Below are positions 16,871 through 35,301 of a DNA stretch of 64,000 nucleotides, piece after piece. The first letter of the stretch is position 1, and each line of letters starts with the position of its first letter. Below the pieces are notes generated by a model. That model saw only the letters and a list, made by a program, of their open reading frames with translations, had not been told where the DNA came from and searched no databases. Source of the stretch: an uncultured Gemmatimonadales bacterium (GTDB lineage Bacteria > Gemmatimonadota > Gemmatimonadetes > Gemmatimonadales > GWC2-71-9); assembly GCA_963795085.1 (NCBI GenBank), contig CAWCFX010000004.1, positions 448,001 to 512,000 on the forward strand, in the 5' to 3' direction. A program made the position numbers and the translations under genes.

Positions 16871-16920
16871 CGTCCCGCCGCGGCACCGATAAGCTCCCCT
16901 CTCGACCGCGACTGGCATGA
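16867..16920 (+). other. Putative relay ORF (17 aa) with ATGA overlaps at both ends
   Basis: MTSRRGTDKLPSRPRLA*. Its ATG overlaps the K1 stop and its TGA overlaps ATG 16917. Confidence 0.4.
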
Positions 16921-17141
16921 CGGTGGACGGGTCGCTCGCCGCCGCCTTGGCCGACCGCTACCGCATCGAGCGGGCCGCGACTCACGTCGCTGCTCGGCAC
17001 GCCATCGCTTCGCGATTCCGCCTGTTCGAGAATCCTTCGGGCGGGAATTTCCGAAATAGATGGACTCACCAAGTGAAGTCGCTCCGCGACGTTGTGCCGA
17101 GCAGCGACGTAAATCGTGATTGCGGCGAGGTGGATGAATGA
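16917..17141 (+). CDS. False-start mini-ORF 1 (74 aa): kinase N-terminus followed by hairpin-encoded sequence
   Basis: MTVDGSLAAALADRYRIER|AATHVAARHAIASR...VPSSD. Its stop overlaps the K2 ATG. Homologous to 32166-32390 and 35029-35244. Confidence 0.5.
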   Translation: MTVDGSLAAALADRYRIERAATHVAARHAIASRFRLFENPSGGNFRNRWTHQVKSLRDVVPSSDVNRDCGEVDE

Positions 17142-17195
17142 CCACCGCGGAGCGCCTTGCCCAGGCCCTGGCCGACCGCTACCGCATCGAGCGGG
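16944..17195. repeat. Hairpin element copy 1 with flanking direct repeats
   Basis: Perfect 17 bp inverted repeat ACGTCGCTGCTCGGCAC (16984-17000) / GTGCCGAGCAGCGACGT (17094-17110). The 31 bp direct repeats at 16944-16974 and 17165-17195 are 30/31 identical, 221 bp apart. Confidence 0.85.
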
Positions 17196-32447: not shown

Positions 32448-35029
32448 AACTGGGCGCGGGCGGCATGGCCACGGTCTACCTCGCCCACGACCTGAAGCAC
32501 GATCGCCGGGTCGCGATCAAGGTGCTCCGGCCCGAGCTGGCCGCGGTGATCGGGGCCGAGCGGTTTCTCCGGGAGATCCGGACCATCGCCAACCTCCAGC
32601 ACCCCCACATCCTCGGCCTGATCGATTCCGGGGAACTGCACGGCACGGCGTACTACGTGATGCCGTTCGTGGATGGCGAGTCCCTCCGCGACCGGTTGAG
32701 CCGGGAGAAGCAGCTGCCCATCGCCGACGCGGTCAGGCTGGCCACCGAGGTGGCGGGGGCCCTGGACTACGCCCACCGGCAGGGCGTGATCCACCGGGAC
32801 ATCAAGCCCGAGAACATCATGCTGCATGATGGCCGGGCGCTGGTGGCGGACTTCGGCATCGCTTTAGCCGTGAGCAGTGCCGGGGGTAGCCGGATGACCG
32901 AGACCGGGATGTCCCTCGGCACCCCGCACTACATGTCCCCCGAGCAGGCGATGGGCGAGCGGGAGATCACCGCGCGGAGCGACGTGTATGCCCTGGGCGC
33001 GATGACCTACGAGATGCTGATCGGCGACCCACCGTTCACCGGCAGCACCGCCCAGGCGATCGTTGCCAAGGTCATGACCGAGAAGCCGGTCTCGCTCCAG
33101 CGGCAGCGGGAACGGGTGCCCGATACGGTAGAGGACGCGGTGCTCACTGCGCTGGAAAAGCTTCCCGCGGACCGGTTCGGCACCGCCGCCGAGTTCGCCG
33201 GTGCGCTCAACGGAGAGGCGGGGGCCGGGAGACCTCCCCGGACCGGCTCGCCGAGCCGGGCGGGGAAGGGGTCTCGTTTCCGCGACCCGGTCGTGGTTAC
33301 CCTTGCGGTACTCGCGGTCGCCGCGGCGGCTCTCGCCTGGGCCGGCCGGGGTTCGACCCCGGCGGACGCGCCGGTGGTGAGCTTCTCGCTGCAGGTCCCC
33401 CGTACCGGCAGCACGGTCCTGGGGTTCAGCTCCGTGGCCATTTCGCCCGATGGCCAGACGCTGGTGTACGTGGGGGCGGGCGATGGCTTCCGCCAGCAGC
33501 TGGTCGCGCGCCGGATCGACGAGGTGACCGAACATCCCCTGCCCGGCACCGGGGAGGGCGCCCATCCGGTGTTTTCGCCCGATGGCCGGTGGGTGGCCTT
33601 CATCCGGGGCAACCAGTTGTTCCGGGTGGCCATCGAGGGGGGCCAACCCCAGTTCCTCGGCAATGCGCAGGGCACCTTCAATGGAATGAGCTGGTCGTCG
33701 TCCGGGGACATCGTCCTGTCGGGCAACACGACGCTGTACCTCCTGCCCCAGGCGGGCGGATCCCCGAAGGAGTTCGCCCGGCGCGATCCGCCCGAAGGGG
33801 AGCTTTACCTGGACACCCCGATGGTGGTGGATGAGGCGGACGTCATTCTCTACTCCAGCTGGGAGGGCACGGGCCCCGGCAGCGCCCGGATCGCCATCGC
33901 GTCGCGGTCCGACGGCACCATCACCGTGCTGGATGTCCCCGGCGTCCACCCGGTCGGAGTCTTCGACGGCATCCTGCTTTACGCCACACCGTCAGGAACC
34001 CTGATGGGTGTGCCCATTGACCTGCCTGGCCGCCGCGTCACTGGCACCCCGGTCCAGCTGTTGACCGATATCGCGGTGAACAATTCGACCGGGATCGCCC
34101 GGATCGGCGTGTCTCGATCAGGTACTCTCATCTATGAGCAGGGCACGGCGGTATCCCGGGTCGTCCTGGTCACCCCCGAAGGGGCAATCCGGAGCCTTGT
34201 CGAGGAGCCGCGGGAGTATGCCTTTCCCCGCCTTTCCCCGGACGGACGGTCGCTCGCCATCACGATCGGGCAGGGCGGTCGCCGGGATATCTGGCTCTTC
34301 GACCGGCGGCTGGGCACCTCGACCCGGCTCACCACCGAGGGACTCACCAACGAGCGCCCGGAGTGGACCCCGGATGGCCGCCGGGTGCTCTACCGCACCG
34401 ACCGGAGCGCCCGGGCCTCAATCTGGTGGCAGCCCGTGGACCGGAGCGCTGAGGCCACGCCGCTGCTGCAGGGGGGAAGGATGGACCTGTTCGAGGCCGT
34501 GGTATCGCCCGACGGGAACATGGTGGCCTACCAGCTGGATACGCTCGGCGCTGACCTCTACGCCCGGCGGCTCTCCGGCGACACGACGCCGATTCCCATC
34601 GCGACCAGCGCCCGGGGCATCGAAACCATGCCACGCATCTCGCCCGATGGCCGCTGGATCGCCTTCACGACCGATGAATCCGGGGTGGACGAAGTGGTCG
34701 TGCAGCCGTTTCCCGGGCCGGGAGGCCGGGTCCAGGTCTCCTCCGGCGGAGGATCACAGCCGGTCTGGTCCCGGGACGGGCGGCAGCTGTTCTACCGCGG
34801 CGGCGGCTCTCTCATGGCGGCGCGGCTGGAGCCGGGCCCGGCCTTCCGGGTGGCATCGCGGACCGCCCTGTTCCCCGACAGCTATTCCTACGCCACCAAC
34901 CCGCACGCGAACTTCGACGTGACGCCGGAGGGCGATTTTGTCCTGCTCGAACCCGTCGGCGAGTCGAAGATGATCGTGATCACCAACTGGGTTTCCCGGA
35001 TGCGGGCCCGGATGGCGGAAGGGCGATAG
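32387..35029 (+). CDS. K7: Ser/Thr kinase + TM + TolB/PD40-like propeller
   Basis: Start reassigned to ATG 32387 (MTEAPVRL). Kinase domain nearly identical to K6. TM VVVTLAVLAVAAAALAWA. Confidence 0.93.
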   Translation: MTEAPVRLTAALADRYRIERELGAGGMATVYLAHDLKHDRRVAIKVLRPELAAVIGAERFLREIRTIANLQHPHILGLIDSGELHGTAYYVMPFVDGESLRDRLSREKQLPIADAVRLATEVAGALDYAHRQGVIHRDIKPENIMLHDGRALVADFGIALAVSSAGGSRMTETGMSLGTPHYMSPEQAMGEREITARSDVYALGAMTYEMLIGDPPFTGSTAQAIVAKVMTEKPVSLQRQRERVPDTVEDAVLTALEKLPADRFGTAAEFAGALNGEAGAGRPPRTGSPSRAGKGSRFRDPVVVTLAVLAVAAAALAWAGRGSTPADAPVVSFSLQVPRTGSTVLGFSSVAISPDGQTLVYVGAGDGFRQQLVARRIDEVTEHPLPGTGEGAHPVFSPDGRWVAFIRGNQLFRVAIEGGQPQFLGNAQGTFNGMSWSSSGDIVLSGNTTLYLLPQAGGSPKEFARRDPPEGELYLDTPMVVDEADVILYSSWEGTGPGSARIAIASRSDGTITVLDVPGVHPVGVFDGILLYATPSGTLMGVPIDLPGRRVTGTPVQLLTDIAVNNSTGIARIGVSRSGTLIYEQGTAVSRVVLVTPEGAIRSLVEEPREYAFPRLSPDGRSLAITIGQGGRRDIWLFDRRLGTSTRLTTEGLTNERPEWTPDGRRVLYRTDRSARASIWWQPVDRSAEATPLLQGGRMDLFEAVVSPDGNMVAYQLDTLGADLYARRLSGDTTPIPIATSARGIETMPRISPDGRWIAFTTDESGVDEVVVQPFPGPGGRVQVSSGGGSQPVWSRDGRQLFYRGGGSLMAARLEPGPAFRVASRTALFPDSYSYATNPHANFDVTPEGDFVLLEPVGESKMIVITNWVSRMRARMAEGR

Positions 35030-35244
35030 TGGTTCCCCCGGCTCTCGCCACCACCCTGGCCGATCGCTACCGCCTCGAACAGGCCGCGACTTACGTCGCT
35101 GCTCGGCACGGCGTCGCTTCGCGACTGCAGCGAGAACATTCTGCTCCGGCAAGACTGCAATCAACCTGTCATGGACCCAGGCGCACCAACTCGCGCAGCG
35201 ATGGTGTGCCGAGCCGCGACGGAAGTCGCGGGAATAGGCAATGA
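35029..35244 (+). CDS. False-start mini-ORF 3 (71 aa)
   Basis: GTG start overlapping the K7 TAG. MVPPALATTLADRYRLEQ|AATYVAARHGVASRLQREH... Its stop overlaps the K8 ATG. Confidence 0.55.
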   Translation: MVPPALATTLADRYRLEQAATYVAARHGVASRLQREHSAPARLQSTCHGPRRTNSRSDGVPSRDGSRGNRQ

Positions 35245-35301
35245 CGGAAGCCCCCGTCCGTCTCGCCGCCGCCCTGGCCGATCGCTATCGACTCGAGCGG
35301 G
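35053..35301. repeat. Hairpin element copy 3 with flanking direct repeats
   Basis: Inverted repeat 35084-35109 / 35206-35231, 24/26 complementary. The interior is nearly identical to copy 2. The direct repeats share CCCTGGCCGATCGCTA (35054, 35272), 218 bp apart. Confidence 0.88.

What the first reader, a model, noticed from the sequence alone, without database searches (positions are those of the whole stretch)
16917..35301. Three copies of a ~220 bp hairpin element inserted at the same codon of the kinase 5' end, duplicating the gene start
Seen: at 16917-17195, 32166-32447 and 35029-35301 a kinase gene appears to begin (..LADRYR[I/L]E[R/Q]) and then breaks at the same codon into GCCGCGACT(T/C)ACGTCGCTGCTCGGC. 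It runs through a long imperfect inverted repeat (17/17, 23/24 and 24/26 bp cores, ~65 nt inner loop) and then restarts as a full kinase. The direct-repeat spacing is 221, 221 and 218 bp, even though the copy-1 loop is highly diverged from copies 2 and 3. The two flanking repeats of each copy share local variants (CTC/CTC in copy 2; GAT/GAT and YRLE in copy 3). Copies 2 and 3 are followed by the same start, ATGACGGAAGCCCCCGTCCGTCTC, although K7 and K8 have unrelated sensors. Excising one period would leave a single intact, coupled kinase gene. Inference: this is a site-specific non-autonomous element or recombination site, functionally analogous to attC or REPIN hairpins, that targets kinase starts and restores them. 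It may mediate cassette gain or loss in the array. An RNA processing or attenuation structure is the alternative. No cognate recombinase is in the window.
Basis: partly seen in the sequence, partly recalled or inferred. Interest (0 to 1): 0.9.

Follow-up and report, generated by a model that had tools for sequence, protein, structure and literature searches.

The report
Hairpin repeats bridged by relay ORFs
Three copies of a small hairpin-forming repeat sit just inside the starts of kinase genes in a long gene row, and the orphaned old gene start now opens a short reading frame that carries ribosomes across the repeat to the rebuilt start, a variant of a trick already known from mycobacterial MIRU repeats.

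Summary
At 16917-17141, 32166-32390 and 35029-35244 a relic kinase start (..LADRYR[IL]E[RQ]) is joined at the same codon to a ~150-nt inverted-repeat element. A complete kinase start follows 9-19 nt later. The element is not kinase-specific. It is a doublet of a REP-like unit (a 5-6 bp stem that covaries, plus a GCTCGGC tail) found in unrelated intergenic sites in a congener and in other genera of this Gemmatimonadales family. Each relic start overlaps the upstream kinase's stop, runs open through the hairpin (74, 74 and 71 codons) and stops on the ATGA of the real start. All six gaps under 300 nt in the 13-kinase row are bridged this way, so stop-start translational coupling is unbroken. Kinases that carry the element are scattered on the kinase tree, so the module moved between paralogs; it was not passively co-duplicated. 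Host recombination at the conserved LADRYRIER-coding repeat is my favoured route. The closest known case is MIRU repeats. This scan has noted the same device before on other DNA (e1-1525503, e1-732213, e1-921783). Verdict: new variant of a known kind, moderate interest.

The parts
16867..16920 (+). 17-codon mini relay ORF. Its ATG overlaps the K1 stop (ATGA) and its TGA overlaps the ATG of relay ORF 1.
16917..17141 (+). Relay ORF 1, 74 codons: relic kinase start (16917-16973, MTVDGSLAAALADRYRIER), then the element; its stop TGA overlaps the K2 ATG at 17138.
16974..17122 (.). Element copy 1, a REP-like inverted doublet of 'type 1'.
   Evidence: 127.4 bits
17138..19456 (+). K2, Ser/Thr kinase with TPR repeats; the rebuilt start.
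32166..32390 (+). Relay ORF 2, 74 codons. Its ATG overlaps the K6 stop (ATGA). The relic start is 32166-32225 (MTGARDRLAAALADRYRIER). Its stop overlaps the K7 ATG at 32387.
32226..32377 (.). Element copy 2.
   Evidence: 138.8 bits
32387..35029 (+). K7, Ser/Thr kinase with PD40 beta-propeller repeats.
35029..35244 (+). Relay ORF 3, 71 codons. Its GTG overlaps the K7 stop by one base (TAGTG). The relic start is 35029-35082. Its stop overlaps the K8 ATG at 35241.
35083..35234 (.). Element copy 3.
   Evidence: 138 bits
35241..37073 (+). K8, a short Ser/Thr kinase of 610 aa.
29402..29488 (+). 28-codon relay ORF in the K5-K6 gap. It starts 10 nt after the K5 stop and stops on the K6 ATGA. It holds no element.
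37080..37133 (+). 17-codon relay ORF in the K8-K9 gap. It starts 6 nt after the K8 stop and stops on the K9 ATGA.
45967..46011 (+). 14-codon relay ORF from the K11 ATGA to the K12 ATGA.
14249..50938 (+). Row of 13 co-oriented Ser/Thr kinase genes plus one SBP56-like gene. K3/K4, K4/X5, K9/K10 and K12/K13 overlap by ATGA; K2/K3 are 1 nt apart.

Best explanation
The hairpin is a doublet of two inverted REP-like units, REPIN-like in shape. It belongs to a repeat family that lives mostly in ordinary intergenic DNA of this Gemmatimonadales family. In this kinase row, successive genes are normally joined stop-to-start (ATGA). Here a copy lies between a relic kinase start and a complete new start. 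The relic start still overlaps the upstream kinase's stop codon. I infer that a terminating ribosome re-initiates on the relic start, translates a 71-74-codon relay frame that melts the hairpin, and terminates on the ATGA of the real kinase start, where it re-initiates again. The insert therefore costs the operon little and persists. The block of element, ribosome-binding stretch and new ATG has moved among paralogous kinases. I think host homologous recombination or gene conversion did this, using the very conserved LADRYRIER-coding repeat on both sides. The junction between repeat and element probably arose once. Shown here: the anatomy, the repeat family and its stem covariation, the open relay frames and their excess over chance, and the scatter of carriers on the kinase tree. 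Inferred: translation of the relay, its benefit, and the route of transfer.
For: (1) Repeat family. The model R1 finds the element in 17 of 151 family genomes (one of the 17 is the unpublished G018). The arm pattern occurs in 18 of 401 genomes. G004 has 4 non-kinase intergenic copies. The small outer stem covaries: 5 of 6 pairs have changes on both sides, in 36 cells against a shuffled mean of 7.2, with 0 of 500 shuffles as high, and the slid controls are far lower. (2) Relay frames. All six gaps of 37-267 nt in the row are bridged to within 10 nt of the upstream stop and end on the downstream ATGA. Under composition shuffles with length jitter the chance of each is 0.0625, 0.065, 0.1335, 0.03, 0.0415 and 0.3255. 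Copies 2 and 3 differ by one 3-nt indel, so the frame is kept. In G003, three further elements at kinase junctions lie in relay ORFs of 67, 49 and 56 codons, each ending on ATGA. In G027 the frame ending on ATGA is open for all 60 codons up to the contig end. (3) Coupling is the norm. Of 51 kinase starts in arrays of G002-G004, 42 begin NTGA, 28 are overlapped directly by a long upstream ORF, and 7 more are reached through mini relay ORFs. (4) Transfer. The five element-bearing kinases need 5 changes on the kinase-domain tree, and one clade is rejected (AU p = 1.7e-62). K7 is 93% identical in protein to K6, which has no element. K6/K7/K8 identity along the gene is mosaic, 69-98% per 100 columns for K6-K7, which shows active gene conversion. 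Copy 1 and the G027 copy are 131 of 156 nt identical, while their kinases are 211 of 286. Relics 1 and 2 differ at 3 of 40 nt, less than either differs from any kinase except relic 2 from K7 (my count), which fits one origin of the junction. (5) Literature. About 20 nt of gap nearly abolishes termination-reinitiation (PMC10666635, abstract). MIRUs insert at start codons with an internal ORF coupled at -4 (PMC12548453, passage).
Against: No RNA or ribosome data exist, so translation of the relay frames is inferred. Only 7 elements at kinase junctions in 3 genomes are known, and two pairs among them are not independent. In G027 the relic LADRYR-like codons are out of frame with the open frame, and its start lies beyond the contig end. 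The block shared by copies 2 and 3 at about 95% identity stops within a few bases of the repeat on both sides, while the flanks are 70-86% identical. GAT occurs only in the two repeats of copy 3. Both facts fit an in-situ target duplication by an active element at least as well as host recombination. Homologous exchange on a left homology of only 27-40 nt would be rare. No RAYT link was found for the family, so calling it REPIN-like rests on shape only.
Confidence: 0.6

Rival explanations
1. Active site-specific cassette. The unit of element, ribosome-binding stretch, ATG and 8 codons is mobilised by a dedicated enzyme. It integrates at the LADRYRIER-coding motif, duplicates about 30-40 nt of the target, and so replaces the gene start.
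For: The same junction (GAGCGG|GCCGCGACT) occurs in 5 copies in front of kinases that are scattered on the kinase tree, in 3 genomes. The block shared by copies 2 and 3 has sharp edges at the repeat on both sides. The GAT variant is unique to both repeats of copy 3. In G003 the interior of the element is inverted relative to copy 2 while the junction is unchanged, as expected for insertion in either orientation. Earlier scan notes on other genomes describe hairpin repeats with long target duplications at gene starts (e1-2127147; unchecked).
Against: Other members of the repeat family sit in unrelated intergenic sites without any kinase start. No arms lie next to the 8 Y1 transposase loci checked. 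The two repeats of copy 3 differ at 6 of 40 nt and those of copy 1 at 5 of 40 (my count), more than the 5% divergence of the element itself. In G003:C313 a related element is joined to a kinase relic at a different point, after GGMATV. The junction pattern gave 0 kinase contexts among 24 metagenome matches.
Confidence: 0.15
2. Deletion relics. Each relic start is what remains of a whole kinase gene that was deleted from codon 21 up to the left edge of an element lying in the next intergenic spacer. Only in-frame outcomes that preserve coupling survived.
For: The element's right arm ends only 9-19 nt before the real ATG, as expected for an element in a short spacer. Relics are of different lengths: to the LADRYRIER motif in 5 cases, to GGMATV in G003:C313, and about 9 codons in G003:C222 element 1. 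The short relay ORFs between K8/K9 and K11/K12 begin and end like kinase genes. Relics are about as close to other kinases as to their own partner (my count).
Against: Five identical left end points would require one origin or a hot spot. I found no microhomology between the motif end and the flanks of intergenic copies. This rival explains the origin but not the later transfer between lineages.
Confidence: 0.15
3. Dedicated regulatory RNA. The hairpin would be an attenuator, processing site or translational switch selected for control of kinase expression.
For: The fold is strong (z = -3.3 and -5.0). The arms are nearly invariant between genera while the loops diverge. The element always lies close to the start codon.
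Against: Rfam gave 0 matches at gathering score. The long helix has 0 compensatory changes among 29 pairs. No terminator-like site falls on any copy. Ten of the 13 kinases in the row lack the element. The same family lies in unrelated intergenic sites.
Confidence: 0.1
4. Passive co-duplication of one historical junction together with its kinase gene.
For: K6, K7 and K8 are close paralogs, and copies 2 and 3 are neighbours.
Against: Carriers are not one clade (5 changes, AU p = 1.7e-62). K6, the nearest relative of K7, lacks the element. Copy 1 and the G027 copy share one element type in front of kinases that fall in different parts of the kinase tree.
Confidence: 0.03

Closest known systems
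MIRU, mycobacterial interspersed repetitive units (Supply et al. 1997, as described in the review PMC12548453, passage read, and in PMC2734929, passages read)
   Same: Both are small dispersed repeats that lie at gene starts inside operons. In both, an internal ORF ends with a -4 overlap (ATGA) on the start of the downstream gene, so insertion costs little expression.
   Different: MIRUs are 40-100-bp units, often tandem and variable in number, and are mycobacterial. This element is a ~150-nt inverted doublet that forms a long hairpin. It is single-copy at each kinase site. Its relay ORF is opened by a relic copy of the host gene's own start, and the conserved first 20 codons are duplicated. 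Sequence relatedness to MIRU was not tested.
REP elements and their head-to-head dimers, or REPINs (Di Nocera et al. 2013, PMC3733652, abstract, section 6 and passages; Bertels and Rainey 2011, recalled from an earlier scan note and not read)
   Same: Both have a short stem-loop unit with a conserved unpaired tail. Units are paired in inverted orientation and fold into a larger hairpin. Copies are dispersed, mostly extragenic, and occasionally lie within coding regions or N-terminal regions.
   Different: No associated RAYT was found. The stems are 5-6 bp and lack the features given for the four CGTC families (8-9 bp stems with A-T pairs at the first two positions, and a CCA tail). Copy number is low: three full copies and one half copy in this genome.
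Translational coupling by termination-reinitiation at overlapping stop and start codons (Huber et al. 2023, PMC10666635, abstract; review PMC12548453)
   Same: ATGA overlaps link the kinases and the relay ORFs. A short ORF 'delivers' the ribosome to the next gene.
   Different: Here the delivering ORF crosses a ~150-nt hairpin repeat and is built from a relic gene start. Chains of two relay ORFs occur (16867-16920 followed by 16917-17141).
Integron attC sites and gene cassettes
   Same: Both involve an imperfect inverted repeat next to a unit that appears to be gained or lost in a gene array.
   Different: No integrase, attI site or cassette structure was examined or seen. The element lies inside a gene start and not at a cassette 3' end. 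Family members are scattered in ordinary intergenic DNA.

Membership tests
REP / REPIN | Short imperfect palindrome (stem-loop) with a conserved flanking motif | tested here: met
   The unit is GCGAC-NNNN-GTCGC followed by [TG]GCTCGGC. Five of 6 stem pairs covary across 60 rows, with 0 of 500 shuffles as high. Two of the rows come from the unpublished G018.
REP / REPIN | Two units in inverted orientation that form a larger hairpin | tested here: met
   Arms are 41-48 nt. The long hairpin is the minimum-energy fold.
REP / REPIN | Many dispersed, mostly extragenic copies in a genome | tested here: inconclusive
   G000 has three full copies and one half copy. G004 has at least 5 sites. Seventeen of 151 family genomes have a model match. 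These numbers are low for a REP family.
REP / REPIN | A cognate RAYT (Y1 transposase) flanked by the same repeat | tested here: not met
   PF01797 genes are present in G000, G003, G004 and G027. None of the 8 loci checked, out of 17 matches, has the arms nearby.
CGTC-tagged REP families 1-4 (Di Nocera 2013) | Stem of 8-9 bp with A-T pairs at the first two positions, loop of 4-5 nt, CCA-like tail | tested here: not met
   By inspection against section 6 of PMC3733652: the stem is 5-6 bp and G-C rich, and the tail is GCTCGGC.
MIRU | Sits at a start codon, with an internal ORF coupled to the downstream gene at -4 | tested here: met
   Relay ORFs end on ATGA at 17138, 32387 and 35241. The feature is taken from the passage in PMC12548453.
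MIRU | 40-100-bp units, often in tandem with variable copy number | tested here: not met
   The element is about 150 nt with a period of 218-221 nt, and there is one copy per kinase site. The only tandem case is four left arms at G004:C7.
MIRU | Sequence homology to mycobacterial MIRUs | not tested
Integron attC | A nearby IntI integrase and attI site, and a cassette array with attC at each 3' end | not tested
   No integrase search was run. The element's position inside gene starts does not fit.
Translational bypassing (T4 gene 60 type) | Matched take-off and landing codons around a short gap (about 50 nt), with a stop codon right after take-off | tested here: not met
   Matched CGG codons do flank the gap. 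However, the gap is 218-221 nt, GCC and not a stop follows the take-off codon, and a complete start lies downstream. The features of gene 60 are recalled, not read.

The most novel reading that the evidence does not exclude
The unit of hairpin, ribosome-binding stretch, ATG and 8 codons would be an actively mobile 'gene-start replacement' cassette. It would recognise the conserved LADRYRIER-coding motif of these kinases and integrate in either orientation of its palindromic core. It would duplicate about 30-40 nt of the target, far longer than any usual transposon target duplication, and supply a new start. The old start would then become a relay ORF that keeps the operon translationally linked. 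Together with similar cases noted by this scan in other phyla, this would point to an undescribed insertion mechanism for hairpin repeats at coupled gene junctions.
Probability: 0.15. Interest if true: 0.8.

Novelty: new variant of a known kind. Interest (0 to 1): 0.45.

Why it matters
The case shows how a selfish or neutral hairpin repeat can lodge inside a tightly coupled operon without breaking it. The displaced gene start is recycled as a relay reading frame that carries ribosomes over about 220 nt. Direct termination-reinitiation fails beyond about 20 nt (PMC10666635, abstract). The case extends the MIRU principle to another phylum and to a REP-type palindrome. It gives a statistically clear example of selection on non-protein 'bridging' ORFs, with six of six gaps bridged. 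It also marks the repeat-flanked kinase starts as likely sites of exchange in a fast-evolving kinase array. For annotation, it warns that 70-codon ORFs which start like a kinase are relay frames. They are neither pseudogenes nor small proteins.

Tried and rejected
Rfam at gathering thresholds over the window gave 0 matches.

It listed 80 of 116 loci, almost all chance matches in other phyla. Of the four Gemmatimonad loci I opened, three were chance hits inside a repetitive coding region and one was a shorter intergenic hairpin.

The metagenome scan for the junction pattern gave 24 loci, none with a kinase relic upstream.

I looked for orthologs of K7 and K2 in congeners to find empty sites. 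The best sensor-domain matches were only 35-43% identical, so orthology, and therefore empty sites, could not be established.

Public runs: 3 soil DNA runs from one study hold 7-13% of the sampled words, and no RNA holder is listed. Laid as contigs, short pieces match 17053-17251, 17065-17217 and 35136-35286 with 0-1 differences. This confirms the joints from element to kinase, possibly in the source sample. No skip of about 221 nt appeared among the 15 joints shown (13 more were not shown). Cover is too thin to say anything about empty sites.

The K5-K6 gap is not a decayed element: local alignment scores of 19-21 compare with a shuffled mean of 18.75, sd 2.6.

The gene upstream of the intergenic copy at G004:C59 is not demonstrably a kinase (best E = 2).

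Long relay-like chains before three other congener kinases turned out to be ordinary upstream genes or had no hairpin.

A scripted count of pairwise differences between the 40-nt repeats was not completed. I counted by eye instead.

The search of earlier findings by sequence found nothing.

I could find nothing in print on REP-type repeats in Gemmatimonadetes: the search listed 3 unrelated papers. One search (REP plus translational coupling) listed 2 unrelated papers.

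
Full report
WHAT IS THERE. The window is G000:C4:448001-512000 of a 3.89-Mb, 67% G+C genome. Titles of related records place it in Gemmatimonadales. Between 14249 and 50938 lie 13 co-oriented Ser/Thr kinase genes (Pkinase plus PD40 or TPR sensor parts) and one SBP56-like gene. Four neighbouring pairs overlap by ATGA, and one pair is 1 nt apart.

A kinase-like start of 18-20 codons ends in LADRYR[IL]E[RQ]. After the same codon it is joined to GCCGCGACT[CT]ACGTCGCTGCTCGGC, the left arm of an imperfect inverted repeat. The arms are 41-48 nt, 74-85% complementary and 45-66 nt apart. A complete kinase gene starts 9-19 nt after the right arm. The direct-repeat spacing is 221, 221 and 218 nt. 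The long hairpin is the minimum-energy RNA fold, with z = -3.3 and -5.0.

Each relic start is itself coupled to the stop of the upstream gene: ATGA at 32166, TAGTG at 35029, and ATGA at 16917 through a further 17-codon ORF that begins on the K1 stop. Its frame stays open through the whole hairpin for 74, 74 and 71 codons. It ends with a TGA that overlaps the ATG of the real kinase at 17138, 32387 and 35241. Copies 2 and 3 differ in length by exactly 3 nt.

The pattern is general in the row. All six gaps of 37-267 nt are bridged, to within 10 nt of the upstream stop, by one or two ORFs that end on the downstream ATGA. With shuffled gap sequence and length jitter, the chance of this per gap is 0.0625, 0.065, 0.1335, 0.03, 0.0415 and 0.3255. 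The product is about 2e-7, or about 7e-6 if copies 2 and 3 count once.

In arrays of the congeners G002-G004, 42 of 51 kinase starts called by my script begin NTGA. Twenty-eight are overlapped directly by a long upstream ORF and 7 more are reached through mini ORFs of 3-163 codons. The remaining 16 include contig ends, ordinary upstream genes and limits of the script.

WHAT THE HAIRPIN IS. In the window's own genome BLAST finds only the three copies plus one arm-like half copy in a non-kinase intergenic site at C4:773560-773605.

In relatives the same arms occur in ordinary intergenic DNA. G004 (same genus) has four such copies, one with four tandem left arms. A covariance model matches 17 of 151 genomes of the family (this count includes the unpublished G018). 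The arm pattern matches 18 of 401. None of 17 loci from other genera found by the model and none of 17 found by the pattern is next to a kinase start.

Across these copies, each arm is a small stem-loop (GCGAC-NNNN-GTCGC and compensated variants such as GCGGC/GCCGC and GCGAG/CTCGC) followed by a conserved [TG]GCTCGGC tail. Five of 6 stem pairs show changes on both sides, in 36 cells against 7.2 in shuffles, with 0 of 500 shuffles as high and slid controls far lower (two of the 60 rows are from G018). The long helix shows no compensatory change in 29 pairs among 9 copies.

This is the anatomy of a REP unit arranged as a head-to-head doublet (Di Nocera et al. 2013, PMC3733652: abstract, section 6 and passages read). 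It does not fit the four CGTC families described there. No Y1 transposase locus among the 8 checked (of 17 matches) carries the arms. Rfam has no match, and no terminator-like site lies on any copy.

KINASE-ASSOCIATED COPIES ELSEWHERE. G003:C222 (same genus) and G027:C47 (another genus) each have relic, element and full kinase with the identical junction.

In G003 the interior of the element is inverted relative to copy 2. The relay ORF has 67 codons and ends on ATGA. It is preceded by a second element of another subtype inside a 49-codon relay ORF that also ends on ATGA.

G003:C313 has that subtype in front of another kinase, in a 56-codon relay ORF. The relic there reads MTPPPPMVQGGMATV, so the junction lies at a different point of the kinase.

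In G027 the frame that ends on ATGA is open for all 60 codons up to the contig end, but the relic motif is out of frame with it.

Overall, 6 of 7 elements at kinase junctions lie in verified stop-to-start relay ORFs. The seventh is undetermined.

DID IT MOVE? The kinases downstream of the five same-junction copies fall in different parts of the kinase tree. On that tree, built without the first 20 residues, carriers need 5 changes, the maximum possible. One clade is rejected (log-likelihood difference 185.9, AU p = 1.7e-62). K7's nearest relative, K6, is 93% identical in protein and has no element. Passive co-duplication of one junction with its gene is therefore rejected.

Copy 1 and the G027 copy share one element type (131 of 156 nt), while their kinase 5' regions are 211 of 286 identical. 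Copies 2 and 3 share a block of about 187 nt at about 95% identity: the element, the ribosome-binding stretch, and the ATG plus 8 codons, the last 29 nt being identical. The block is bounded on both sides by the LADRYRIER-coding repeat, beyond which identity drops to 70-86%. K6, K7 and K8 are mosaics; K6-K7 identity is 69-98% per 100 columns. Gene conversion is therefore active here.

HOW IT MOVED IS NOT SETTLED. Host recombination through the repeat, an active element with a long target duplication, and deletion relics each explain part of the data.

- For in-situ duplication: the sharp block edges, and the GAT codon found only in both repeats of copy 3.
- Against in-situ duplication: the two repeats of a copy differ at 3, 5 and 6 of 40 nt. 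Only relic 2 is nearest to its own kinase. Relics 1 and 2 are closer to each other (3 differences) than relic 1 is to any kinase (my count). A different junction point exists in G003:C313.

I put host recombination after a single origin of the junction at roughly 55%. An active cassette and independent deletion relics each get about 15%.

I found no empty-site alleles. Orthologs cannot be recognised in congeners, since sensor domains are at most 43% identical. The junction pattern gave 0 kinase contexts in 24 metagenome loci. The three public soil runs that hold parts of the region are too thin. They confirm the element-to-kinase joints at copies 1 and 3 and show no 221-nt skip among the joints listed.

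HOW IT MOST LIKELY WORKS. Termination-reinitiation needs an overlap or a few bases. About 20 nt of spacer nearly abolishes it in E. coli and Haloferax (PMC10666635, abstract). A 210-270-nt insert would therefore uncouple the downstream kinase. The relay ORF restores the chain in three steps: re-initiation at the old, still overlapping start; translation through the hairpin, which melts it; and termination on the ATGA of the rebuilt start. These steps are inferred from anatomy and from the excess of open frames. No expression data were available.

COMPARISON WITH WHAT IS KNOWN. The nearest described case is the mycobacterial MIRU. According to the review PMC12548453 (passage, citing Supply et al. 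1997, which I did not read), MIRUs insert at start codons so that an ORF within the repeat is coupled to the gene at -4 with little effect on expression.

This case differs in four ways. The element is a REP-type palindromic doublet of about 150 nt. It is single-copy at each site. The relay ORF is opened by a relic of the host gene's own start. The conserved first 20 codons are duplicated. It is not an attC site, and it is not a translational bypass in the gene 60 sense (features recalled): the gap is too long, no stop follows the take-off codon, and a full start lies downstream.

EARLIER NOTES OF THIS SCAN. I read the notes after I had found the relay frames. Three notes on other genomes describe the same device: relay mini-ORFs across hairpin repeats inserted just inside kinase starts (e1-1525503, e1-732213, e1-921783). 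Others point to MIRU as the closest known case (e1-2127147, e1-5023117, e1-3525290). One note on this genome reports another REP-like family (e1-2411609). They are unchecked AI notes. I took the MIRU lead from them and checked it in the literature.

VERDICT. The interesting parts are the relay reading frame and the transfer of the element-plus-start module among paralogous kinases. This is a new variant of a known kind, with interest about 0.45.

Noticed in passing
window 26030-26058 (+): There is an 11-of-12 match to a sigma-70-type promoter (TTGACA, 17 nt, CATAAT) in the 813-nt gap between the SBP56-like gene and K5. The kinase row may therefore be at least two transcription units.
   Followed up: no
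window 24769-25968 (+): A 399-aa SBP56-like (selenium-binding protein family) gene with a signal-peptide-like start is ATGA-coupled to kinase K4, inside the kinase row.
   Followed up: no
G000:C4:773560-773605 (outside the window; L029 1061-1106): A lone arm of the same repeat lies in a non-kinase intergenic region. It is followed by a CT-rich short-period repeat (CTTCCTGCTCCCTGCTCCCTG).
   Followed up: partly
L003 1437-1654 (G004:C7:11515-11732): Four tandem left arms with a period of about 32 nt are followed by a loop and a single right arm. They lie between two non-kinase genes. One frame is open across the whole cluster and stops 5 nt before the downstream ATG.
   Followed up: partly
G000:C4:546683-547023: A Y1_Tnp (PF01797) gene is split by a TGA, about 35 kb beyond the window end. 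An intact copy lies at C3:370563-370910. Neither has the element's arms nearby.
   Followed up: partly
window 29485-37073: K6, K7 and K8 are mosaics. K6-K7 nucleotide identity per 100 columns ranges from 69% to 98%, which points to repeated gene conversion between neighbouring kinases.
   Followed up: partly
window 2-7570 (-): A 2523-codon open frame on the minus strand lies opposite two long plus-strand ORFs (1091-4573 and 4643-7540). One of the two strands must be a spurious high-GC shadow frame.
   Followed up: no
L266 11202-11313 and L261 8681-8851 (G003:C222, G003:C313): A second subtype of the repeat (outer stem CGCGAA/TTCGC) carries a conserved GGAG ribosome-binding stretch and ATGA on its right flank at two different kinase starts.
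   Followed up: partly
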